A DNA stretch of 64,000 nucleotides from Nannocystaceae bacterium ST9 (GTDB lineage: Bacteria; Myxococcota_A; Polyangia; Nannocystales; Nannocystaceae), in the NCBI GenBank assembly GCA_048320885.1, contig JBLWFJ010000001.1:1349642-1413641 (forward strand). The letters run 5' to 3'. The notes beneath the pieces are model-generated. The model worked only from the letters and a program-made list of their open reading frames with translations, searched no databases and was not told the DNA's origin. Positions 4,027-13,232 of this stretch are shown piece after piece (within the stretch, counting starts at the first letter, position 1; every line of letters starts with the position of its first letter). The position numbers were made by a program, and so were the translations under genes.

Positions 4027-4462
4027 AACCCCCTCCATGCGACCCTGCCTACGTGGGGCATTGCGTGGTTCCCCTGCTCGGGCCGTCTCGCCCTCGCGGG
4101 GAATGGACAACGGGTTCGGCTTCGCCTCCCCTCGCTCCCTGCTTCGGCGAGATCCCTTCGCCGAAGCAGAACCAACCTGCGCCGAAGCAGAACCAACCTG
4201 CGCCGAAGCAGAACCAAACTGCGCCGAAGCAGAACCAGCCTGCGCCGAAGCAGAACCAAACTGCGCCGAAGCAGAACCAAACTGCGCCGAAGCAGAACCA
4301 AACTGCGCCGAAGCAAACGACCCTCCGCCGAAGCGAGCAAGGGGAGCGAAGCGAACCCGCTGTCCATTCCCCGCGAGGGCGAGACGGCCCGAGCAGGGGA
4401 ACCACGCAATACCCCAAGTAGGCAGAGCCGCGTGGAGGGGGTTCCTCGAGCGAAGCTCGAGG
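3996..4462. repeat. Nested palindromic element: ~150-bp imperfect inverted-repeat arms flanking 8 x 21-bp tandem repeats
   Basis: Left arm ~3996-4150 and right arm ~4300-4462 are near-identical reverse complements; the core gcgtggttcccctgctcgggccgtctcgccctcgcggggaatggaca is perfect. The six-frame ORFs on both strands mirror each other here (MGYCVVPLLGPSRPRGEWT / MGHCVVPLLGPSRPRGEWT). Confidence 0.8.
4152..4320. repeat. 21-bp tandem repeat x8 (cgccgaagcagaaccaa[a/c]ctg)
   Basis: Direct reading of the sequence. The unit reads as the 7-aa PKQNQ[PT]A or AEAEP[TN]C in different frames. It lies in the loop of the inverted-repeat element. Confidence 0.85.
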
Positions 4463-4495: not shown

Positions 4496-5239
4496 TCAGA
4501 ACCGCCACTCGACGATCAGCGGCAAGATCTGGATCGGCAGCGAGAACGCCGGATCCTTGTCGATCCCCTGGTTCGGCGGATGGTTGCGGTGGATCATCAG
4601 GCTCGGCCGAAATTCGACGTCGAGGCCGATCGCAAGCTCGCGCAGCAGGAAGAGCCGCAGGCCGACGCCGGCTTGGAAGCCGAGGGTCCAGCTGAGCTCG
4701 CGGCTCTGCTCGCGGGTGCCGTAGAGGTTCGGGTACTTCCAGAATCCGCCGGCCAGGCCGCCGCGGAAGATCGGGACCAGGAAGGGCGCCTTCTCGATGT
4801 AGAGCTTGTAGGTGTAGCCCAGCCAGACGTCGGCGCCGGCGACCGTGCCGGCGTCGCAGGTGCCGGTCTGGTTGTCCATGCCACACGAGGGCATGCGGAA
4901 GTCCTTGTACCCACCGCGATCGAAGAGCCCGGCGACGCCGATGTGAACCCAGTGCGCGCGGTGGATCTGGCGGTCGTACTGGATCCCGATCCGACCGCGC
5001 GGGACGTAGCCGACGATCCCGACCTGAACGGGCGCGAGCAGCGAGATCGCGTTGCCTCCGTACACGAAGTCCGGCAGCTTGAACCCGGTGTCCTGGCTCG
5101 AGGGGTTGGGCTTGCTGGCCCCGCTCGTCGGCGGCCCGGCGAGCGCCTCCGGGGCGAGCGCGAGCAGGATCATCGCGACGAGCAGAGGAAGGATCCGCTG
5201 GGCACGGGCTCGAAGTGGACGGGGGAGCGGACGTGACAT
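4496..5239 (-). CDS. Outer-membrane beta-barrel protein (hypothetical)
   Basis: 247 aa. Signal peptide MSRPLPRPLRARAQRILPLLVAMILLALAPEALA, alternating amphipathic beta-strand pattern, C-terminal ...IVEWRF (terminal aromatic). Confidence 0.65.
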   Translation of the reverse strand: MSRPLPRPLRARAQRILPLLVAMILLALAPEALAGPPTSGASKPNPSSQDTGFKLPDFVYGGNAISLLAPVQVGIVGYVPRGRIGIQYDRQIHRAHWVHIGVAGLFDRGGYKDFRMPSCGMDNQTGTCDAGTVAGADVWLGYTYKLYIEKAPFLVPIFRGGLAGGFWKYPNLYGTREQSRELSWTLGFQAGVGLRLFLLRELAIGLDVEFRPSLMIHRNHPPNQGIDKDPAFSLPIQILPLIVEWRF

Positions 5240-5283: not shown

Positions 5284-5913
5284 GTGTACCCCCTGTTCCT
5301 GCTCGCCGTGCTCACGGTGCTCACGCTCGGACTGGCCCAGCGCCTCGGCCTGCTGGGCGACACGACCCTGATGATCGGGGCCTCGCTGCTCGGCGGCGTG
5401 ACCTTCCTTTCCGTTCACCCCGACCTCGACTGGATCGGCGAAGAACCGCAAGATCAGACCTGCGGACTCGAAGGCGAAGACGAGCTGGCGATCCGGGTCG
5501 AGCGAATTTCGGTCGATGACGCGCAGGCATTGCTGGGCGACGAGACCGTGACCTTCGTCGACGCTCGCAGCGGCGACGACTACGTGGCGGCGCACATCCC
5601 CGGCGCCGTGAGCCTGCCGGCCAGCGACGCGGCCGGGATCCTCGAGATCCAGTCGGTGCCGATCCTGCCCGAGGGGCAGGTCATCACCTACTGCAACGGT
5701 GGCGCCTGCGAGCAGTCCGAGTACCTCGGCGTGCTGCTGCGCGACCGCGAGGTCTGCAAGCAGGTCATGGTGCTCGAGGGCGGCTGGGCGGCGTGGGTCG
5801 AGGCCGCGGCGCCGACGGTCAGCGGCGAGGGCCAAGATGGATCGATCTCGGTCGACGTCGCGAACCCGAGCCCGAGCGAGCCCTGCGAGCCGAGCGAGGC
5901 GGTGCGCGGATGA
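5284..5913 (+). CDS. Rhodanese-domain sulfurtransferase with N-terminal membrane anchor
   Basis: Active-site loop YCNGGACEQS, plus FVDARSGDDYVAAHIPGA; hydrophobic N-terminus. The stop overlaps the next start (ATGA 5910-5913). Confidence 0.7.
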   Translation: MYPLFLLAVLTVLTLGLAQRLGLLGDTTLMIGASLLGGVTFLSVHPDLDWIGEEPQDQTCGLEGEDELAIRVERISVDDAQALLGDETVTFVDARSGDDYVAAHIPGAVSLPASDAAGILEIQSVPILPEGQVITYCNGGACEQSEYLGVLLRDREVCKQVMVLEGGWAAWVEAAAPTVSGEGQDGSISVDVANPSPSEPCEPSEAVRG

Positions 5914-6374
5914 CCACGCTCGACACGACCTCGAAGGATCCCGAGTGGATGCGCGCGGCCGGCTGGATCGGTCGCTTGGTCGCGGGCGGCGTGTTCGTGT
6001 ACGCGGGCGGGCTCAAGCTGCTCGACCCGGCCGCGTTCGCGCAGGACATCGGCAACTATCAGGCCTTCCCCTGGTGGACCTGGAACCTCGCCGCCGCGGT
6101 CGTGCCGATCGCCGAGATCCTCGCCGGGCTCGCCCTGATCAGCGGCATCAAGCGGCGCGCCGGCGCGATCGTGCTCGGCTCGCTGACGGTCGCGTTCCTC
6201 GGCTTGATCGCCTCGGTGATCGTCCGCGGCATCGACTTGAACTGCGGCTGCTTCGGCGACGCGGCCGAGGCCAGCGCCGTCGGCTGGCCGCTCTTCTTCC
6301 GCGATCTCGCGCTGCTGGTCGCGATCGTCGCGGCCTACCTGCCGGCCGAGGCTCGCTCTTCGACCACGCCCTGA
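5910..6374 (+). CDS. DoxX/MauE-family membrane protein
   Basis: MTTLDTTSKDPEWMRAAGWIGRLVAGGVFVYAGGLKLLDP..., DLNCGCFG motif, 4 predicted TM helices. Translationally coupled to the rhodanese gene. Confidence 0.7.
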   Translation: MTTLDTTSKDPEWMRAAGWIGRLVAGGVFVYAGGLKLLDPAAFAQDIGNYQAFPWWTWNLAAAVVPIAEILAGLALISGIKRRAGAIVLGSLTVAFLGLIASVIVRGIDLNCGCFGDAAEASAVGWPLFFRDLALLVAIVAAYLPAEARSSTTP

Positions 6375-7354
6375 GCGTCCTCGGCCAGCGCCGCCGACTC
6401 GACCCGCGCAGCCGACTCAGACGCCGGCTCGGCCACCGGAGGGGGCCGGCCGATCAGGCTCCGCGCACGCGACCCGAGATCCCGCGCGAGCTTGGTCAGC
6501 GCGGCATAGTCGGAGTCCGACAAGAGCAGCATCTCCGCGCCGATCATGATCACCGCGAAGCTGTTGAGCCCCATGAACGAGAAGATCCCGAGGTGGAAGG
6601 AGATCGCACAGATCACCGCCACCCGACGCGGCCACGGCTTGCCGAAGAAGTAGACCCAGGGGAACGCGAGTTGGAGCATCAGCGGGGCCCAGGTCATCAG
6701 GCCGAGCAGGTAGCGGTTGTTCCAGATCAGCGCCCCGAACCCGGTCATGCCGAAGTCCTCCGAGGCGAGCACGTAGTAGAACGCCGTGCCGTTCTGCCAG
6801 TACTTGCCCGGCACCTTGGCGATGCCGGCGGTGAAGTACATGATCGAGATCTGGATCGCGCAGGCCAAGAGCGCGGCGTTGTGCAGCGTGATCCGAGTCC
6901 GCGACATCGGCTTGCCCTGGGCCGGCGAGTTCCACAGGTCGGCGAAGATCGCGAAGATCATGATGATCTCGGCCAGGTTGTCGCCGCCGTCCCAGAGCGC
7001 CGGACAGCGTGCATGCAGGCTGTGGACGACCCACCAGGCCAAGAGCGTTCCGACGTGGCCGCCCAAGCCGACGGTCCACAGGCCGAGCACGACCAGACCG
7101 GCGAGGTACCCGAACCACTGCCAGGCGTTGCTCCCGGACAGCGCCATGTACGAGTAGTGGATCCGGCCGAAGCTGGCGGCGAAGCCATCGTAGGGAAAGA
7201 TCGACCCCGGGCCCATCAACAGGTCGAACTGGCCGATGAGCATCGTCAACTGCAAGAGCAGCGCGGTGCCGACGATGACGCGGAACAGCACCGCGCCCCG
7301 GAGTTGGCGAGGCTCCTCGCTGAAGGAGTCCAAGACACGCGTGATTTCATTCAT
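6335..7354 (-). CDS. HTTM-domain (vitamin K-dependent gamma-carboxylase-like) integral membrane protein
   Basis: 339 aa, multi-TM, LRGAVLFRVIVGTALL... typical HTTM N-terminus. The start ATG overlaps the upstream stop (ATGAATGA at 7347-7354). Confidence 0.65.
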   Translation of the reverse strand: MNEITRVLDSFSEEPRQLRGAVLFRVIVGTALLLQLTMLIGQFDLLMGPGSIFPYDGFAASFGRIHYSYMALSGSNAWQWFGYLAGLVVLGLWTVGLGGHVGTLLAWWVVHSLHARCPALWDGGDNLAEIIMIFAIFADLWNSPAQGKPMSRTRITLHNAALLACAIQISIMYFTAGIAKVPGKYWQNGTAFYYVLASEDFGMTGFGALIWNNRYLLGLMTWAPLMLQLAFPWVYFFGKPWPRRVAVICAISFHLGIFSFMGLNSFAVIMIGAEMLLLSDSDYAALTKLARDLGSRARSLIGRPPPVAEPASESAARVESAALAEDAQGVVEERASAGR

Positions 7355-8165
7355 GGAAGTCGACCTCGGTCGGAGTCGGCGACGCGATCGGACCCGCTGG
7401 TTCCGTCAGCCCGGCTGCTTTCTGTTCGAAGTAGAGATCGAGGTACTCGCGGGCGCGGACATCGAGATCCTCGATCTCGGCGGGCCGCAGCCACGGCACG
7501 CTGACCGCGGTCGGCTCCTCGACGTGGTCGGGATCGTTGCGGTACGAATAGGGCGTGATCTTGCGGGTGACGATCCGGTAGCGGATGCGATCGACCTCGC
7601 CGACGCCATCCTGCCGACAGTAGTGCCAGATCAGGTGGTAGGCCGTGCGGCTCGAGGCGATGTTCTCGGCGACCTTGTGGGCGATCAGATCGTTGATCGC
7701 GTCGCGCTGCTCGGGCGGGGCCTCGTCGAGGCTGGCGATCAACTGATCGAGCAGGACGTCTTGACCGCCCAAGGTCGCGAGCACCGCGGCTTGCTCGATC
7801 CGGCGCAGGCGACCGGCGGGCCCGAAGCGGCGCCCCGCGTGGCTCTCGAGCAGCTCGTCGCCGCGGCTCAGCCACTCGGTCTCGACGCCGTCGCGATCGC
7901 ACTGGTAGTCGAGCCGGCGATCGAGCAGCGGCGGATCGGGGGCGAACAGAGTCCAGCGCTGACGGAAGAGCGGCTCGAGGTACGCGAGCGCCTCGTTGCG
8001 CCAGTGCAGACCGACGACGCTGACCGAGTTGAGATAGACGGCCGTGATCGTGAAGTGCACGGTCAAGACCGCCAAGCAGGCGACCGTCAGCGCTCGCGTG
8101 CGCCACGAGGGGGCCGCGAGCTGGGGTGGATTCGACGCGACTCGGGGATCGGGTTGGCTCGACAT
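7347..8165 (-). CDS. DUF5819-like protein (frequent HTTM partner)
   Basis: 272 aa with an N-terminal TM (LTVACLAVLTVHFTITAVYL). Sits immediately upstream of, and coupled with, the HTTM gene. Confidence 0.55.
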   Translation of the reverse strand: MSSQPDPRVASNPPQLAAPSWRTRALTVACLAVLTVHFTITAVYLNSVSVVGLHWRNEALAYLEPLFRQRWTLFAPDPPLLDRRLDYQCDRDGVETEWLSRGDELLESHAGRRFGPAGRLRRIEQAAVLATLGGQDVLLDQLIASLDEAPPEQRDAINDLIAHKVAENIASSRTAYHLIWHYCRQDGVGEVDRIRYRIVTRKITPYSYRNDPDHVEEPTAVSVPWLRPAEIEDLDVRAREYLDLYFEQKAAGLTEPAGPIASPTPTEVDFHE

Positions 8166-8175
8166 GACTCTCGGC

Positions 8176-10797
8176 TCAGAGCTGGACGTCGCCGAGGTCG
8201 ACGACCTCGGCAGCGCCTCGTTCGACGGCGACGGTGGTCGCGAGCTCCTGCGCGTTCTCGCCGGTCCCGACGAAGTGCAGCAGGAGTGGGCCAGGAGGCA
8301 GGCCCGTGATTCGGAACGCTCCCTGGTCGTCGGTGCGGTTGACCTGGGTGGTGAACGACTCGATCGCCGCGCGACTGAAGGTGTCGCACGCGTCGCGGGT
8401 CGGCAGCGCGAACACCTGGTAGCCGGCCAGCGGCTCGCCGTCGGGAGCGAGCGCGCGACCTTCCGCGCTCAGCCAGCCATCGCCCTCGACGCTGACCGTC
8501 GCGCTCGCGCCGGTCACTTCGGTCTCGACGCTGCCGTAGCTCTTCTCGCCACAGAACACGACCCGGTACTTGCCCGCGAGCAAGCCCGTGACCACGGTGG
8601 AGCCGGAGTCCGAGGCGGTCCGCTCGATCCGGGTCTTGCCGAGGATCACGACCTTCCCACGCTCGCCGGGATGCTGAACGGTCAGCTCGCTCTCGGGTGG
8701 CACGATCAACGCGTTCGGGCCTTCGACCCGCAGCGTGGCGTCGAGCGCCGCGGTCGAGTAGCCGGCGCGGTGGAAACGAACCGCCAGCGCCCCCTCGTCG
8801 GTCCACGCGATCAGCTCGAAGCGGCCCTCGGAGTCGGACACGGCCTGCAGCGAACGGTCCTGGTCGGCGAACACGACGGCACCTTCGACCGCGCCGCCGT
8901 CCTCGTCCTCGACCCGACCTCGGAAGGTCTCTTGCTTCGAGGTGACCGCGAGATCGAGGCGCTCGTCGGCCCCCTCGGCGAGCTCGAGCTTGGTCGGACC
9001 TTCAAAGCCGACCGTGCCACGCGAGTGACGAAGGACCAGCGCGTAGCTGCCCGGCTCGAGCCCCTGCGCCGCGAACTGCCCGTCGTCGCCGACGTCGATC
9101 TCGTAGAGCGGCGAGCCGGCGGCCCGGGTCCCGTCGATTCGCTGCGGCTCCCCGGTCGGCGAGAGCACCAGCTGCAGGCCCGACGCGGCGCCGAGGTTGC
9201 TGACCACCCCGCTCACCCGCGCCGCCGGAGCGAGCACGAGCTCGACCTCGCCGCCCTGGCGAGCGATCTCGGCGTCGATCTCCAGCTCCGCGCGCCCGTG
9301 CGCCACGTGCTCGGCGACCAACACGACCTCGCCGAGCGAGAGCGGACCCATGCTGAACTTGCCCTCGGCGTTGGTCTGGGTGGTGCGAAACGCGTTCATC
9401 ATCGCGAAGCCCATGGTCCCGAACTCGAGCTTGGCGAGGTCCATGCGTGCACGGATCTCGATGCCCTGGATCGGCGGGCTGACCCGGCCCGCGATCATGT
9501 AGCCACGCTCGACCTCGAGATCGAGGAACTCGTCTTGCTCGGCGACGTTGATCACCCCGCCCAGCAAGTTGCCCGCGTACTCCTTGTGGGCGACGATCGT
9601 GTGGTAGCGGCCCTTGGGGACCGAGCCGCAGTCGAACTGGCCCTGCGCGTCGCTCTCGTCGCAGACCAGGATGGAGGTGTCGCCCTTGAGAGTGACGAGC
9701 GCGCCGGCGACCGGCACGTCCCCTCCACGCTCGCGGACCTTGCCGTAGACGGGCGTGCCGCTCACGAGCGTGAGCTCGACGCCCTCGAGCTGCTCGTAGA
9801 GCTCGACCGAGATCTCGACGGGCGCCTCGGTCGAGGCCGTGGCCGAGATGGCATGAACCGCCCACGAACCAAACCCGACGTTCTCGAGCCGAAACGAGCC
9901 GTCGGGGCCGGAGACGCCGTCCGCTCGCGCGGCGTGATTGACCACCGAGCCGCCGGCCTCGAGCAGACGGACCAGTCGAATCTCGGCCCCGGCGACGCCC
10001 GGCCCCGAGGGGCCGAGCACGACCCGCCCGCTCACGGTGGTCCCGGGGCTGAGCACCAGCGCGACGTCGACCCGATCGCGCTGGCGGGTGTCGGCCCCCG
10101 TCGAACTGCTCGAATAGCCCGGGAACGCGCTGCGGACCACATAGCGGCCTGGAGAGACCTGGATCGAGAATGCGCCCCGCTCGTCGGTGTCGACCCGAAA
10201 TACCGGCTGTTCGAAGCCGAATCCGTTGACGGTGCCTTCGGGGATCACGTCGACGTCGGCCCCGTCGAGCGGCCCGCCGAACACGTCGGCGACCGTCCCT
10301 TCGATCGTGGTCGCGGGGCCGCTCGGAAGCGTGATTTCGTAGACGTGGTCCTCGCAGCGACGAGGCGCGGCGATCGATTGACTGAACGCGAGCGAGCCGG
10401 GGATCACCACCGCGAGCGCGATCGGCCCACCGGGGACCCGCGGAACCTGCCAATTGCCCTCGGGATCGACCTTGGCGACCTGGACGGGATGGGCGGTGCC
10501 CGGTTTGGCCAGCGAGACGGTGACGGTCCCACCCACCGCGGCGGGGTCATGGCCGAGGATTCGCCCACACAGGGTGAGTCGTTGATTGTCTCGCGACGAT
10601 TCCGGTCGCGCCGGCCGGTCGGCCGAATCACGCGAGCGCGTATTGCCCCCTTCGCCCTCGTCGCGTTCGGCCTCGCGCGACTCACTCGATTCCCGATTGT
10701 CCCGATTGTTCTGGCCCAGCCACCAAACACCGATGATTGCCGCGATCGCGGCAACGACGAGGAGAATCCGTGACGTTCGAGCTTCGGGCTTGGACAT
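8176..10797 (-). CDS. Large membrane-anchored protein with ~8 carboxypeptidase-regulatory-like (CarboxypepD_reg / transthyretin-like) repeats
   Basis: ORF 8176..10866, start assigned at MSKPEARTSRILLVVAAIAAIIGVWW (TM anchor, ATG complement 10795-10797). Recurrent G-R/K-V...DA.G.F.l..l.pG.Y modules. Confidence 0.7.
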   Translation of the reverse strand: MSKPEARTSRILLVVAAIAAIIGVWWLGQNNRDNRESSESREAERDEGEGGNTRSRDSADRPARPESSRDNQRLTLCGRILGHDPAAVGGTVTVSLAKPGTAHPVQVAKVDPEGNWQVPRVPGGPIALAVVIPGSLAFSQSIAAPRRCEDHVYEITLPSGPATTIEGTVADVFGGPLDGADVDVIPEGTVNGFGFEQPVFRVDTDERGAFSIQVSPGRYVVRSAFPGYSSSSTGADTRQRDRVDVALVLSPGTTVSGRVVLGPSGPGVAGAEIRLVRLLEAGGSVVNHAARADGVSGPDGSFRLENVGFGSWAVHAISATASTEAPVEISVELYEQLEGVELTLVSGTPVYGKVRERGGDVPVAGALVTLKGDTSILVCDESDAQGQFDCGSVPKGRYHTIVAHKEYAGNLLGGVINVAEQDEFLDLEVERGYMIAGRVSPPIQGIEIRARMDLAKLEFGTMGFAMMNAFRTTQTNAEGKFSMGPLSLGEVVLVAEHVAHGRAELEIDAEIARQGGEVELVLAPAARVSGVVSNLGAASGLQLVLSPTGEPQRIDGTRAAGSPLYEIDVGDDGQFAAQGLEPGSYALVLRHSRGTVGFEGPTKLELAEGADERLDLAVTSKQETFRGRVEDEDGGAVEGAVVFADQDRSLQAVSDSEGRFELIAWTDEGALAVRFHRAGYSTAALDATLRVEGPNALIVPPESELTVQHPGERGKVVILGKTRIERTASDSGSTVVTGLLAGKYRVVFCGEKSYGSVETEVTGASATVSVEGDGWLSAEGRALAPDGEPLAGYQVFALPTRDACDTFSRAAIESFTTQVNRTDDQGAFRITGLPPGPLLLHFVGTGENAQELATTVAVERGAAEVVDLGDVQL

Positions 10798-10888
10798 GAA
10801 TCTCTCGCGCGATCGCGATCCGACATGACGGAAGCACCTCGGTCGGGCGCCCATCGGGGCACCCAACCGAGGCTACGGGGACACCAGA

Positions 10889-11191
10889 CTAGTCGAGCAG
10901 GTAGTCGGCGTTGGCGTCCGCGAGCGTGTTCATCTGCTGCTGCGACGAGCCGGCGAGCCACTTGCCGACTTCCTTGCCGAGGTCGTACAACTTGTCCGCG
11001 GTCCAGGCGTAGGCCGCGAGAGCACCACCGACGAGCGCGACGGTGACGGTCGGATCGGCGACCATCGCCTCCGATTCGATGACCTCGTTCTGAGCGGTGG
11101 CGGTCGGCGTCCAGGCCAGACTCGAGATTGCGGTCGCACCAACCAAGGTGGCGACGAGCGTGAGCTTGATTCGGGTGTTGTAGGTCTTCAT
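10889..11191 (-). CDS. Small secreted protein, paralog 1 (100 aa)
   Basis: Internal Met of ORF 10889..11548: MKTYNTRIKLTLVATLVGATAISSLAWTPTATAQ (Sec signal, AxA site), acidic segment, Gly/Ala-rich helix. Starts 8 nt after the paralog 2 stop. Confidence 0.55.
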   Translation of the reverse strand: MKTYNTRIKLTLVATLVGATAISSLAWTPTATAQNEVIESEAMVADPTVTVALVGGALAAYAWTADKLYDLGKEVGKWLAGSSQQQMNTLADANADYLLD

Positions 11192-11199
11192 GGCGTTGA

Positions 11200-11490
11200 T
11201 CAGTTGAGCGCGTACTCGAAGGCGAGCGGGTCGAAGTCCGCCAACTGCTCCGCGGGTTGCGGCTTGTTCTTGCACTCCATGTAGCCCTGAGCGATTCCCA
11301 GCAGAAACGCCCCGGCCAGGCCTGCAACAGCCACGACGGCGATCGCCGGAAGAACCGCGAGCGCCTCGGAGTTGGTCTCCTCGACGTCCTGTTCGATCGC
11401 AGCTTGCGCTTCGTGTTCGGTGGTGAGCGAAAGGGTCGCGGTGACGAGCGTCAAGGCCACGACCGCAGAAGTAATCTTGCGGTTTTTCAT
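11200..11490 (-). CDS. Small secreted/membrane protein, paralog 2 (96 aa)
   Basis: MKNRKITSAVVALTLVTATLSLTTEHEAQA signal, acidic AIEQDVEETNSEA, TM helix with GxxxG/A motifs. Upstream SD GAGGGAG. Confidence 0.55.
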   Translation of the reverse strand: MKNRKITSAVVALTLVTATLSLTTEHEAQAAIEQDVEETNSEALAVLPAIAVVAVAGLAGAFLLGIAQGYMECKNKPQPAEQLADFDPLAFEYALN

Positions 11491-11699
11491 CGATCTCCCT
11501 CTTCGGAGGTCCCCAGACACCCCGATCGCCGTCGACAATATAGACCACTCGGTTTCACTTCAAGACAATTTTTCATTGCCATCGAAGTGCCATCCGAGGG
11601 TATGGCTGGTCTCTCGACCAAATCGCCGGTGCCCATGCCTGCATTGCTACTGGCCCAAAGTACGCGATTCGCCGAGTCGCATGTTCGCGGAATGGTCGG

Positions 11700-11790
11700 T
11701 CGAATGTCGGTCGAATGTCGGTCGATTGGTCGGTCGATTGGTCGTTCGAACATCACGGTTCGAACATCACGATTCGACTCTCACCTGACG
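11700..11790. repeat. Three consecutive short tandem duplications in the AT-richer acyl-CoA dehydrogenase upstream region
   Basis: ggtcgaatgtc x2, ggtcgattggtc x2, gttcgaacatcacg x2, read directly. Candidate operator or regulatory sites. Confidence 0.6.
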
Positions 11791-12023
11791 CGACTATTAC
11801 GAAAGACTATTGTGACACTCCATCGATGTGTCTCGCTCGCTATCGCTCGGCACCACCCTCGACGAGTGGGCCGCGAGGCCGTTCAGGCTCATGTCCTCGA
11901 TTCTGGCCTCCCGTTCAGCGCACGAGACGCTAGGCCCTCCAGCCACCGCGCAAGGGACGCGAATCCCCGAGGTCGTGTCCGGGCCGACCCCTGCGACGGC
12001 TCGCGCGGTCCAACCCGCCCCTC

Positions 12024-13232
12024 ATGGTATCGATGCCCGCCATGTCCACCGACGCCCGGACCTACCTGCTCGGCATCGACCACCTGCTGACCGACGAAGA
12101 GCGGCTGACCTGGAAGTCGGCCCACGAGTTCTGCCAGAGCCGGATCCAGCCGGTCATCGAGCAGCACTACGAGGCCGGGACCTTCCCGCGCGAGCTGATC
12201 CCCGAGTTCGCCGAGATGGGCTTTTTGGGCTGCTCGATCGAGGGTTACGGGTGCGCGGGCATGAACCCGGTCGCGTACGGGACAATCATGATCGAGCTCG
12301 AGCGGGTCGACTCCGGCATCCGCTCGTTCTGCTCGGTCCAGACCGCGCTCGCGATGTACCCGATCTTCGCCTACGGCAGCGAAGACCAGCGCCAGCGCTG
12401 GCTGCCGCGGATGGCCGCCGGCGAGCTGATCGGCTGCTTCGGGCTGACCGAGCCCAACTCCGGCTCCGACCCCGGCTCGATGCGGACCCACGCCAAGCAG
12501 CTCGAGCCCGGCGGCGACTTCGTGCTCAACGGCCAGAAGATGTGGATCACCAACAGCCCGATCGCCGACCTCGCGATCGTGTGGGCCAAGACGCTCGAGT
12601 ACGGCAGCAGCACGCCGGTGATCCGCGGGTTCGTGGTCGAGCGCGGCATGCCGGGCTTCTTCACGCCCGAGACCCACGGCAAGCTCAGCCTGCGCGCGTC
12701 GATCACCGGCGAGATCGTGCTCGACGAGGTTCGGGTCCCGGTCGCCAACCTGCTGCCCAACGTGTCGGGCCTCAAGGGTCCGCTCGGCTGCCTGACCCAA
12801 GCCCGCTACGGGATCGGCTGGGGAGGCGTCGGCGCGGCGATGGACGTGTACGAGCGAGCCCGCCGCTACACGCTCGAGCGCACGCAGTTCGATCGCCCGA
12901 TCGCCGGCTTCCAGCTGACCCAGCAGAAGCTGGTCGAGATGCACGACGAGATCGTCAAGGGCCTGCTGCTCGCCTACCACTGCGGCCGGGTCAAGCAGGC
13001 CGGCAAGCTCGACCCCGTGCAGGTCAGCATGCTCAAGCGCGAGAACGTTCGAATGGCCCGCGAGGCCGCCCAGACCGCGCGGACCATGCTCGGCGGCAAC
13101 GGGATCATGGGCGAGTTCCACATCATGCGGCACCTGTGCAACCTCGAGACGGTCTACACCTACGAGGGCACGCACGAGATCCACACGCTCTCGATCGGCC
13201 GGGCGCTCACCGGCCTGTCGGCGTTCTCGTGA
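12024..13232 (+). CDS. Acyl-CoA dehydrogenase (glutaryl-CoA dehydrogenase-like)
   Basis: 402 aa with the ACAD fold pattern. The real start may be a few codons in (MSTDARTY). Confidence 0.85.
   Translation: MVSMPAMSTDARTYLLGIDHLLTDEERLTWKSAHEFCQSRIQPVIEQHYEAGTFPRELIPEFAEMGFLGCSIEGYGCAGMNPVAYGTIMIELERVDSGIRSFCSVQTALAMYPIFAYGSEDQRQRWLPRMAAGELIGCFGLTEPNSGSDPGSMRTHAKQLEPGGDFVLNGQKMWITNSPIADLAIVWAKTLEYGSSTPVIRGFVVERGMPGFFTPETHGKLSLRASITGEIVLDEVRVPVANLLPNVSGLKGPLGCLTQARYGIGWGGVGAAMDVYERARRYTLERTQFDRPIAGFQLTQQKLVEMHDEIVKGLLLAYHCGRVKQAGKLDPVQVSMLKRENVRMAREAAQTARTMLGGNGIMGEFHIMRHLCNLETVYTYEGTHEIHTLSIGRALTGLSAFS

What the first reader, a model, noticed from the sequence alone, without database searches (positions are those of the whole stretch)
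5284..7354. Rhodanese-DoxX/MauE pair (ATGA-coupled) converging on, and overlapping, the HTTM gene
A membrane-anchored rhodanese (YCNGGACE) is translationally coupled to a DoxX/MauE-family membrane protein with a CGCFG motif. This resembles the mycobacterial SseA (rhodanese)-DoxX thiol-oxidoreductase complex. Its 3' end overlaps the 3' end of the HTTM gene by about 40 bp (6335-6374). In eukaryotes a vitamin-K-dependent carboxylase needs a quinone/thiol redox partner (VKOR), so a thiol/quinone-handling pair parked against HTTM is suggestive. This is inference only.
Basis: inference. Interest (0 to 1): 0.55.

Follow-up and report, generated by a model that had tools for sequence, protein, structure and literature searches.

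The report
Conserved rhodanese–MauE pair; HTTM adjacency accidental
The rhodanese and MauE genes form a self-contained, widely conserved two-gene module that probably oxidises thiols at the outer face of the inner membrane, and they sit against the HTTM gene only because a five-gene HTTM cassette was inserted next to them in this one lineage.

Summary

- None of 80 genomic MauE loci carries HTTM or DUF5819 within 10 kb.
- None of 86 HTTM loci carries MauE or this rhodanese. DUF5819 is present in 68 of them.
- The closest relatives have rhodanese-MauE followed directly by the acyl-CoA dehydrogenase gene. This window has about 5.6 kb extra (about 6353-12010).
- The extra DNA is a cassette: two small secreted peptides, a CarboxypepD_reg protein, DUF5819 and HTTM.
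- The HTTM stop codon lies inside ancestral MauE coding DNA, so the overlap is a junction by-product.

The real signal is the pair itself. A rhodanese lies directly upstream of MauE in 76 of 80 loci from at least six phyla, usually with a 4-nt overlap. MauE carries every feature of the MauE-type DsbB analogue reported in 2026 (periplasmic CXC-F-G, Lys in TM1, Glu in TM2). The rhodanese always keeps at least two cysteines. My best reading is a quinone-linked periplasmic thiol oxidase with a rhodanese-fold partner. That mechanism is inferred, not shown.

The parts
5284..5913 (+). Membrane-anchored, periplasm-facing single-domain rhodanese (209 aa). N-terminal TM hairpin, flexible linker with Cys60, active-site loop C137-N-G-G-A-C142.
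   Evidence: Pfam Rhodanese 9.1e-16. AF2 pLDDT 82.5 with helices 2-20 and 24-44 and domain 73-175. Foldseek top hits are single-domain rhodaneses, including YgaP and GlpE. Cysteine conservation.
5910..6374 (+). MauE/DoxX-family four-helix membrane protein (154 aa) with periplasmic C112-G-C114-F-G, Lys36 (TM1) and Glu69 (TM2).
5910..5913 (+). ATGA start/stop overlap coupling rhodanese to MauE.
   Evidence: Sequence. A candidate start codon giving the same 4-nt overlap is present in most of the 80 related loci.
6335..6374 (.). 40-bp convergent 3' overlap of MauE and HTTM. It is a by-product of the insertion junction.
   Evidence: Stops read. Homology to L007/L008 continues to about 6352, so the HTTM stop (6335-6337) lies in ancestral MauE coding DNA.
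6353..12010 (.). About 5.6 kb present here but absent from the closest relatives. It holds the inserted HTTM cassette and its 460-bp upstream non-coding region. Boundaries are approximate.
   Evidence: DNA alignments with L007/L008. Synteny table. GC drops to 0.645 in 10001-12000.
6335..7354 (-). HTTM/SdpB-like polytopic membrane protein. The public annotation starts 21 codons later, giving 318 aa.
   Evidence: NCBIfam TIGR04033 7.6e-26, below cut-off. Homologues carry PF05090 or the name 'HTTM domain-containing'. Invariant K180 and W186.
7347..8165 (-). DUF5819 protein, the true conserved partner of the HTTM gene.
   Evidence: Pfam DUF5819 8e-16. Present in 68 of 86 HTTM loci. Predicted HTTM-DUF5819 complex in bioRxiv 10.64898/2026.08.19.745780.
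8176..10866 (-). Large CarboxypepD_reg-repeat protein that travels with DUF5819-HTTM in the closest relatives.
   Evidence: Pfam CarboxypepD_reg 1.7e-46. Homologues in L001, L002, L003.
10889..11490 (-). Two small secreted-peptide genes (about 10889-11188 and 11200-11490). Each has a signal peptide, an acidic stretch, a hydrophobic helix and a conserved C-terminal (D/E)Y-x-L-(N/D). They are candidate substrates of the HTTM-DUF5819 pair.
   Evidence: ORFs. Conserved in L001/L002. No Pfam family.
4496..5239 (-). Outer-membrane beta-barrel-like gene, divergent from the rhodanese. It is a conserved neighbour only within Nannocystaceae.
   Evidence: Weak NCBIfam MXAN_2562 hit. Synteny in 22 loci.
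12024..13232 (+). Acyl-CoA dehydrogenase, the ancestral downstream neighbour of MauE.
   Evidence: Pfam Acyl-CoA_dh N, M and C domains. It directly follows MauE in 16 Nannocystaceae loci.

Best explanation
There are two independent units that happen to abut.

(1) The rhodanese-MauE bicistron is an autonomous two-gene module found in many phyla. MauE is a four-helix DoxX-fold membrane protein. Its CXC motif sits on the periplasmic TM3-TM4 loop above a conserved Lys/Glu pocket. By analogy with tested MauE proteins, it takes electrons from thiols and passes them to a quinone. The rhodanese is tethered to the same membrane with its domain in the periplasm, and it keeps at least two cysteines. It is most likely the dedicated redox partner, in the role DsbA or MauD plays elsewhere. 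The proposed electron path is: substrate thiol or persulfide, then the rhodanese loop Cys137/Cys142 (with linker Cys60 as a possible shuttle), then MauE Cys112/Cys114, then quinone.

(2) The HTTM gene belongs to a separate five-gene cassette: two small secreted peptides, a CarboxypepD_reg protein, DUF5819 and HTTM. This looks like an SdpAB-like or GGCX-like peptide-modification system. It was inserted between MauE and the acyl-CoA dehydrogenase gene in the ST9 lineage. The 40-bp overlap exists because the HTTM reading frame runs across the junction into MauE coding DNA until it meets a stop.

Shown: gene identities, conservation of the pair, absence of linkage with HTTM, and the insertion. Inferred: topology, direction of electron flow, quinone use, and the role of the rhodanese.
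For: Pair conservation:
- A rhodanese homologue lies directly upstream on the same strand in 76 of 80 genomic MauE loci. These come from Myxococcota, Chthoniobacterales/Verrucomicrobiae, Aminicenantes, Zixibacteria, Marinimicrobia and Ignavibacteriales.
- A 4-nt start/stop overlap is possible in most of them.
- No third gene is conserved across phyla.

MauE features:
- K36, E69 and C112-G-C114-F-G are conserved.
- These match the features described for MauE proteins that replace DsbB in E. coli and lose activity when either Cys of the CXC is mutated (bioRxiv 10.64898/2026.03.05.709764).
- Loop 2 (IKRRAG) averages 2.8 K/R, while loops 1 and 3 are acidic. This places the CXC in the periplasm.

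Rhodanese features:
- It has a TM anchor followed by an acidic linker.
- All 77 sequences keep at least one cysteine in the active-site loop.
- All 22 readable proteins that lack one loop Cys have the linker Cys, against 32 of 54 with both loop cysteines (Fisher p=1.6e-4, not corrected for phylogeny).
- Nannocystis keeps a roughly 75-80-aa TM-plus-linker-Cys remnant even though the rhodanese domain is gone.
- Precedent: the periplasmic rhodanese PspE can substitute for DsbA (Chng et al. 2012, as cited in PMC5403849).

Insertion:
- Synteny runs from the secreted protein through DUF2332, aminotransferase, OMP-like gene, rhodanese and MauE to acyl-CoA dehydrogenase, uninterrupted, in L007/L008 at 79-93% amino-acid identity for most of these genes (about 62% for the secreted protein). 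MauE is directly followed by acyl-CoA dehydrogenase in 16 loci.
- Breakpoints are at about 6352 and about 12010-12022.
- The cassette occurs in different contexts in L001 and L002.

No linkage:
- There are 0 HTTM or DUF5819 hits in the 80 MauE loci.
- There are 0 MauE or rhodanese hits in the 86 HTTM loci, using narrow and broad HMMs up to E=0.1.
- 57 of those HTTM loci have at least 1.2 kb downstream of the HTTM gene.
Against: - No experiment bears on this rhodanese or on any rhodanese-MauE pair.
- The tested MauE proteins worked in E. coli through a thioredoxin-fold partner (DsbA), not a rhodanese. The preprint reports fusions with thioredoxin-superfamily members and never mentions rhodanese.
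- I could not check whether the tested proteins belong to the rhodanese-linked subfamily.
- The 80 loci were retrieved with patterns that include the CGCF motif, so its universality in that set is by construction.
- The two-cysteine rule rests on only two or three independent clades.
- A subclade with the canonical Cys alone, and another with Asp in its place, show the chemistry is not uniform.
- Topology comes from charge bias and a structure model, not from a dedicated predictor or an experiment.
- The exact left junction cannot be placed better than 6353-6374, because the MauE C-terminal tails also differ among relatives.
Confidence: 0.62

Rival explanations
1. One reading: the rhodanese-MauE pair is the thiol/quinone redox partner of the HTTM enzyme. 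It would play a VKOR-like role, regenerating reduced menaquinone or vitamin K for an HTTM-catalysed carboxylation. On this view the convergent overlap reflects functional or regulatory coupling.
For: - MauE is a functional analogue of DsbB/VKOR-type quinone-linked thiol oxidoreductases.
- HTTM-DUF5819 is predicted to bind menaquinol like GGCX. In Melghirimyces the HTTM protein is fused to a DCC-type thiol-disulfide oxidoreductase domain (bioRxiv 10.64898/2026.08.19.745780).
- In L001 a TlpA-like redoxin also converges on the HTTM 3' end.
- The overlap is unusual within this window.
Against: - There is no co-occurrence in 80 MauE loci or in 86 HTTM loci.
- The closest relatives lack the cassette at this site.
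- Pseudenhygromyxa has both a MauE homologue (P0150) and the cassette, but not within 10 kb of each other.
- The L001 redoxin has no counterpart in the other 85 HTTM loci.
- MauE homologues are far more numerous and better conserved (288 hits, mostly 65-91% identical) than this HTTM clade (46 hits).
Confidence: 0.04
2. The pair is a periplasmic sulfane-sulfur or thiosulfate-oxidising system. The rhodanese would take up sulfane sulfur as a persulfide, and the DoxX-superfamily membrane protein would deliver the electrons to quinone. This resembles DoxDA thiosulfate:quinone oxidoreductase, or the rhodaneses attached to SQR/PDO operons.
For: - The rhodanese fold and the canonical catalytic Cys position are present.
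- The DoxX superfamily includes the TQO subunit DoxD (PMC6158253).
- Rhodaneses commonly accompany sulfide-oxidation genes (PMC9163753).
- Some homologues are labelled sulfurtransferase by their source.
Against: - 14 of 77 partners have Asp in place of the canonical persulfide-carrying Cys yet stay coupled to MauE.
- The active-site loops (CNGGAC, CDGSEC, CSSQSC, CDTNDDC) lack the basic residues that bind thiosulfate in classical sulfurtransferases. That comparison rests on my own knowledge of the family.
- No SQR, PDO, Sox or DoxA gene is conserved beside the pair.
- The only functional data for CXC MauE proteins concern protein disulfide formation.
Confidence: 0.2
3. MauE acts in the reducing direction, keeping the periplasmic rhodanese cysteine(s) reduced or repairing sulfenylated cysteines. 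This would be a DsbD/CcdA-like role in protecting the envelope from oxidative stress, in the spirit of the mycobacterial DoxX-SseA-SodA complex.
For: - An earlier study suggested that MauE might be a reductase, as cited in the 2026 preprint.
Against: - MauE has only the periplasmic CXC pair. It has no conserved cytoplasm-facing cysteine that could accept electrons from thioredoxin.
- The preprint's complementation of dsbB mutants argues for oxidation.
- No SodA or thioredoxin reductase gene is conserved beside the pair.
Confidence: 0.08

Closest known systems
MauE-type disulfide bond formation protein (Caldithrix abyssi H1XRV2, Desulfatibacillum aliphaticivorans B8FLW7; bioRxiv 10.64898/2026.03.05.709764)
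   Same: Same Pfam family (PF07291). Both have four TM helices, a CXC followed by F-G on the periplasmic TM3-TM4 loop, and a conserved Lys in TM1 and Glu in TM2.
   Different: The described system is thought to work through thioredoxin-fold partners (DsbA or MauD; 8.2% are fused to thioredoxin-like domains). Here the conserved, translationally coupled partner is a membrane-tethered rhodanese-fold protein, which that paper does not mention. Activity of this subfamily is untested.
Mycobacterium tuberculosis DoxX (Rv3005c)-SseA-SodA membrane-associated oxidoreductase complex
   Same: A DoxX-superfamily membrane protein works with a rhodanese-family protein in thiol redox homeostasis.
   Different: To my knowledge SseA is a two-domain enzyme of the 3-mercaptopyruvate/thiosulfate sulfurtransferase type. 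Here the rhodanese is single-domain, TM-anchored and predicted to face the periplasm. The partner is a CXC MauE rather than a plain DoxX. No SodA is linked, and the genes here are co-translated.
DsbB-DsbA and bacterial VKOR-thioredoxin-like systems
   Same: The proposed logic is the same: a four-helix membrane protein with periplasmic cysteines passes electrons from a periplasmic partner to quinone.
E. coli periplasmic rhodanese PspE and membrane rhodanese YgaP
   Same: Both are single-domain rhodaneses associated with the envelope. PspE can drive disulfide formation when DsbA is missing. The YgaP rhodanese domain is among the closest solved structures.
   Different: PspE is soluble and has a single Cys. 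To my knowledge YgaP is anchored at its C-terminus with a cytoplasmic rhodanese domain. Neither is encoded with a MauE partner. Here the active-site loop carries a second Cys (C-x4-C).
Bacillus subtilis SdpAB-SdpC toxin maturation system and the predicted HTTM-DUF5819 GGCX-like complex
   Same: This comparison applies to the neighbouring cassette only. It has an SdpB-family/HTTM membrane protein next to a small partner protein, and secreted precursors with a signal peptide and a hydrophobic segment.
   Different: The partner is DUF5819, with no NCBIfam SdpA hit. A large CarboxypepD_reg protein and two peptide genes accompany it. Its chemistry is unknown. It is not linked to rhodanese-MauE.

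Membership tests
MauE (PF07291), CXC disulfide bond formation protein | Significant match to the family profile | tested here: met
   99.9 bits against a cut-off of 27, E=1.7e-28, covering profile positions 1-126 of 128.
MauE (PF07291), CXC disulfide bond formation protein | Four TM helices with the CXC (then F-G) on the periplasmic TM3-TM4 loop | tested here: met
   AF2 model helices 12-38, 55-78, 82-106 and 126-143. C112-G-C114-F115-G116 are conserved. The periplasmic side is inferred from K/R bias, not measured.
MauE (PF07291), CXC disulfide bond formation protein | Conserved Lys in TM1 and Glu in TM2 (proposed quinone pocket) | tested here: met
   K36 and E69 are invariant in 18- and 57-sequence alignments. 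Feature defined.
MauE (PF07291), CXC disulfide bond formation protein | Replaces DsbB in vivo; quinone-dependent | not testable with these tools
   Needs complementation of an E. coli dsbB mutant and quinone-reduction assays.
DoxX superfamily fold | Profile match and structural similarity to a DoxX-like protein | tested here: met
Rhodanese (PF00581) sulfurtransferase | Rhodanese fold with Cys at the start of the six-residue active-site loop | tested here: met
   58.6 bits against a cut-off of 22.2. Foldseek probability 1.0 to many rhodaneses. C137 aligns with the catalytic position.
Rhodanese (PF00581) sulfurtransferase | Catalytic Cys retained throughout the subfamily and a cationic loop for thiosulfate | tested here: not met
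   14 of 77 partners have Asp at the catalytic position. The window loop CNGGAC has no basic residue. The requirement for a cationic loop is from my own knowledge of the family.
M. tuberculosis SseA-DoxX-SodA complex | Two-domain SseA-type rhodanese and association with SodA | tested here: not met
   There is one rhodanese domain only and no SseA-type NCBIfam hit. No SodA or other third gene is conserved beside the pair. Physical complex formation is not testable here.
VKOR or DsbB (as homologues) | Sequence or fold membership | tested here: not met
   0 of 80 MauE loci contain HTTM or DUF5819. 0 of 86 HTTM loci contain MauE or the rhodanese. The cassette is absent at this site in the nearest relatives.
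HTTM / SdpB family (neighbouring gene) | Profile match above the curated threshold | tested here: inconclusive
   TIGR04033 gives 91.3 bits against a cut-off of 178.4, although E=7.6e-26. This protein has no Pfam PF05090 hit, but 13 of its 46 homologues carry PF05090.
HTTM / SdpB family (neighbouring gene) | Adjacent DUF5819 partner and conserved Lys/Trp of the predicted quinone pocket | tested here: met
   DUF5819 at 7347-8165, present in 68 of 86 HTTM loci. K180 and W186 are invariant, with the same spacing as Lys189/Trp195 in the preprint. The correspondence is inferred from spacing, not from an alignment.

The most novel reading that the evidence does not exclude
Across at least six bacterial phyla, a membrane-tethered rhodanese-fold protein, not a thioredoxin-fold DsbA or MauD, is the dedicated periplasmic partner of a MauE-type quinone-linked CXC oxidase. 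This would be a previously undescribed kind of envelope thiol-oxidation (disulfide- or persulfide-forming) pathway. A juxtamembrane linker cysteine would shuttle electrons between the rhodanese active-site loop and the MauE CXC.
Probability: 0.35. Interest if true: 0.62.

Novelty: new variant of a known kind. Interest (0 to 1): 0.36.

Why it matters
The HTTM idea, that bacteria park a VKOR-like recycler next to a vitamin-K-type carboxylase, would have been striking. The evidence says this adjacency is an accident of insertion, so it should not be followed up as a functional link.

What remains is a tightly coupled rhodanese-MauE operon conserved from myxobacteria to Verrucomicrobia, Aminicenantes and Zixibacteria. 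MauE has only just been proposed as the second most common bacterial disulfide-forming membrane enzyme, and its natural partners are unknown. A rhodanese-fold partner would widen the known repertoire of oxidative-folding or sulfur-handling machinery. It would also give a directly testable pair of genes.

Separately, the inserted cassette offers candidate natural substrates (two small secreted peptides) for a bacterial HTTM-DUF5819 enzyme whose chemistry is still unknown.

Tried and rejected
- Exact-sequence look-ups of the window MauE and of the second HTTM paralogue (P0012) found nothing on record.
- Pfam gave no HTTM hit for the window protein even at E<=10. Only a weak LMF1 match appeared.
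- Searches for MauE/DoxX together with rhodanese or sulfurtransferase found no paper describing the pair.
- No supplementary sequences of the experimentally tested MauE proteins were held. I therefore could not test whether those proteins belong to the rhodanese-linked subfamily or sit beside a rhodanese.
- I looked for natural rhodanese-MauE fusions among 76 rhodanese hits, 120 listed MauE hits and 80 loci and found none. This is expected if the rhodanese C-terminus is outside and the MauE N-terminus is inside.
- I looked for terminal repeats, tRNA-type landmarks or integrase signs at the cassette borders. Only weak, probably chance, repeats turned up, so the insertion mechanism is unknown.
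- The promoter/terminator scan was no better than shuffles.
- The TlpA-like redoxin beside HTTM in Pseudenhygromyxa was tested as a possible recurring thiol partner. It occurs only in that locus.
- An arsenate-reductase or Cdc25-like role for the rhodanese was considered and dropped, because the loop has no CX5R arginine.
Full report
**Source and anatomy.** The window is about 69% G+C. It comes from Nannocystaceae bacterium ST9, a marine-type myxobacterium: the rhodanese, MauE and HTTM proteins are 100% identical to proteins annotated in that genome. The genes around the finding are listed below.

| Coordinates (strand) | Gene |
|---|---|
| 4496-5239 (-) | outer-membrane beta-barrel-like gene |
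| 5284-5913 (+) | rhodanese |
| 5910-6374 (+) | MauE/DoxX |
| 6335-7354 (-) | HTTM/SdpB-like |
| 7347-8165 (-) | DUF5819 |
| 8176-10866 (-) | 896-aa CarboxypepD_reg-repeat protein |
| about 10889-11490 (-) | two small ORFs |
| about 11550-12010 | roughly 460-bp lower-GC non-coding stretch |
| 12024-13232 (+) | acyl-CoA dehydrogenase |

- The rhodanese has the motif TYCNGGACEQS.
- The MauE ATG (5910-5912) overlaps the rhodanese TGA (5911-5913).
- MauE carries DLNCGCFGD.
- The + strand stop is TGA at 6372-6374. The - strand stop is TAG, read as 'cta' at 6335-6337. This gives a 40-bp convergent overlap.
- The HTTM label needs a caveat. This protein has no Pfam hit. It matches the SdpB family TIGR04033 at E=7.6e-26, which is below the curated cut-off. 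Thirteen of its 46 homologues carry PF05090.

**Linkage seen from the MauE side.** A genome scan with a MauE alignment returned 80 loci with up to 10 kb on each side. I searched their six-frame ORFs.
- An HTTM profile built from 46 proteins, and the window DUF5819 and CarboxypepD_reg proteins, hit none of the 80 loci.
- A rhodanese homologue was present in 76 of the 80. In every case it was on the same strand and ended where MauE begins.
- The loci come from Myxococcota (Nannocystaceae, Sandaracinaceae, Polyangiales, Anaeromyxobacteraceae), Chthoniobacterales/Verrucomicrobiae, Aminicenantes, Zixibacteria, Marinimicrobia and Ignavibacteriales.
- A start codon overlapping the rhodanese stop by 4 nt is available in most of them.
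- Clustering of neighbouring ORFs found no third gene conserved beyond single clades.

**Linkage seen from the HTTM side.** Four look-ups of HTTM homologues gave contexts L001-L006. A metagenome scan gave 80 more loci.
- Across these 86 loci, DUF5819 was found in 68.
- MauE and the rhodanese were found in none. I used narrow and broad profiles, up to E=0.1.
- 57 of the loci have at least 1.2 kb downstream of the HTTM gene, and 42 have at least 3 kb.
- In the closest relatives (L001 Pseudenhygromyxa and L002) the conserved unit is two small ORFs, CarboxypepD_reg, DUF5819 and HTTM. It sits in genomic surroundings different from those in the window.
- Pseudenhygromyxa also has a MauE homologue (P0150), but not within 10 kb of its cassette.

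**The insertion.** The nearest relatives of the window are L007 and L008, two Nannocystaceae MAGs.
- They share the run from the secreted protein through DUF2332, aminotransferase, OMP-like gene, rhodanese and MauE to acyl-CoA dehydrogenase, at 79-93% protein identity for most of these genes (about 62% for the secreted protein). MauE is followed at once by acyl-CoA dehydrogenase.
- The same MauE-to-acyl-CoA-dehydrogenase adjacency is seen in 16 loci, including Plesiocystis and Nannocystis.
- DNA alignment shows homology through MauE up to about window 6352, then loss. Homology resumes at about 12010-12022, just before the dehydrogenase ATG.
- So about 5.6 kb is extra in ST9. Parsimony favours insertion over repeated loss.
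- The HTTM stop codon (6335-6337) lies within DNA that is conserved as MauE coding sequence in the relatives. The HTTM frame therefore reads across the junction into MauE, and the overlap is a by-product.
- The MauE tails also vary among relatives, so the exact junction cannot be placed more finely than 6353-6374.
- I found no repeat or integrase signature at the borders.

**MauE.** A March 2026 preprint (bioRxiv 10.64898/2026.03.05.709764) reports several things about MauE proteins:
- MauE proteins from Caldithrix and Desulfatibacillum replace DsbB in E. coli.
- Either cysteine of a CXC motif on the periplasmic TM3-TM4 loop is required.
- The CXC is followed by conserved F-G.
- A conserved Lys in TM1 and Glu in TM2 line a predicted ubiquinone site.

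The window protein has all of these features.
- K36, E69 and C112-G-C114-F-G are conserved in alignments of 18 and 57 relatives.
- The AF2 model (pLDDT 89) has four TM helices.
- The short loop IKRRAG averages 2.8 K/R while loops 1 and 3 are acidic. This puts the CXC outside.

**The rhodanese.**
- The AF2 model (pLDDT 82.5) shows a TM hairpin, a disordered acidic linker and a canonical single rhodanese domain. The closest solved structures are single-domain rhodaneses such as YgaP and GlpE.
- In other phyla the anchor is a single TM helix preceded by K/R residues. This fits a periplasmic domain.
- The active-site loop falls into three classes: 54 have both cysteines (YC-x4or5-C), 9 have only the canonical Cys, and 14 have Asp at the canonical position and keep only the second Cys.
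- A cysteine in the juxtamembrane linker (Cys60 here) is present in all 22 readable proteins that have a single loop Cys, and in 32 of the 54 with two. Every readable protein therefore keeps at least two cysteines.
- In three Nannocystis loci the gene has shrunk to a roughly 75-80-aa ORF that keeps the anchor and the linker Cys but has no rhodanese domain.
- These patterns rest on a few clades. They fit a dithiol relay better than a classical single-Cys persulfide carrier.
- The loops also lack basic residues. PspE gives a precedent for a periplasmic rhodanese acting in disulfide formation.

**Mechanism.** I propose a quinone-linked periplasmic thiol oxidase (MauE) with a tethered rhodanese-fold partner. 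The genes are kept together by translational coupling. A direct fusion is topologically awkward, because the rhodanese C-terminus is outside and the MauE N-terminus is inside. None of this has been tested experimentally. The rivals, with my probabilities, are:
- sulfane-sulfur or thiosulfate oxidation (0.2);
- a reducing or repair role (0.08);

**The cassette.** The HTTM-DUF5819 pair matches a complex recently predicted to resemble vitamin-K-dependent carboxylase (bioRxiv 10.64898/2026.08.19.745780). K180 and W186 are invariant here. The two small ORFs form two conserved families. Each has a signal peptide, an acidic stretch, a hydrophobic helix and a C-terminal (D/E)Y-x-L-(N/D). The layout recalls SdpC-type precursors processed by SdpAB (PMC6818787). 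They are plausible substrates, which is a lead, not a finding.

**Verdict.**
- The HTTM interpretation is not supported.
- The pair is a real, conserved and little-described variant of the MauE system.
- Interest is moderate.

Noticed in passing
window 10889-11188 (-) and 11200-11490 (-); L001 5771-6389; L002 5838-6480: Two small secreted proteins head the HTTM cassette and form two conserved families. Each has a signal peptide, an acidic stretch, one hydrophobic helix and a conserved C-terminal (D/E)Y-x-L-(N/D). Neither has a Pfam family. They are plausible precursor or substrate peptides of the HTTM-DUF5819 pair, in an SdpC-like layout.
   Followed up: partly
L048 9750-10001, L068 9514-9894, L079 9744-9983: In three Nannocystis loci the gene upstream of MauE is reduced to a roughly 75-80-aa ORF. 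It keeps the TM anchor and the juxtamembrane cysteine (for example EETVCGEVE) but has lost the whole rhodanese domain.
   Followed up: partly
L026, L038, L039, L051, L052, L057, L059, L060, L062, L063, L066, L071, L074, L082 (rhodanese ORFs just upstream of position 10001 or equivalent): A mostly Anaeromyxobacteraceae-like set of MauE-coupled rhodaneses has Asp in place of the canonical catalytic Cys (VYDRD-xxC). These keep only the second loop Cys plus the linker Cys.
   Followed up: partly
window 4155-4334: A 21-nt tandem repeat of 8.6 copies at 93% identity fills the gap between the aminotransferase and the OMP-like gene. That gap is 528 bp here but only about 35 bp in the close relative L007, so this is a second lineage-specific addition. 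It creates several spurious repeat-encoded ORFs.
   Followed up: partly
window 11690-11777: Two adjacent short tandem arrays (12 nt x 5.2 copies and 14 nt x 2.4 copies) lie in the lower-GC non-coding stretch upstream of the cassette's small-peptide genes. They may be regulatory sites.
   Followed up: no
L002 9208-12634; protein P0012: The DUF5819-HTTM pair is duplicated in tandem in L002. The ST9 genome itself encodes a second HTTM paralogue (P0012, 62% identical) on a 574-kb contig.
   Followed up: no
L003 4597-11020: In one more distant relative, DUF5819-HTTM lies directly downstream of two radical-SAM genes and an HxsD-family gene. The CarboxypepD_reg protein and small ORFs follow it. This context suggests peptide modification.
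   Followed up: no
L005 10981-11014 and L006 4225-4258: Another HTTM homologue overlaps an unrelated convergent NB-ARC/TPR gene by 34 bp. The long, poorly conserved HTTM C-terminal tail seems prone to 3' overlaps.
   Followed up: no
L001 10955-11518: In Pseudenhygromyxa a TlpA-like lipoprotein thioredoxin (WCEPC motif) converges on the HTTM 3' end. No homologue of it is found in the other 85 HTTM loci.
   Followed up: yes
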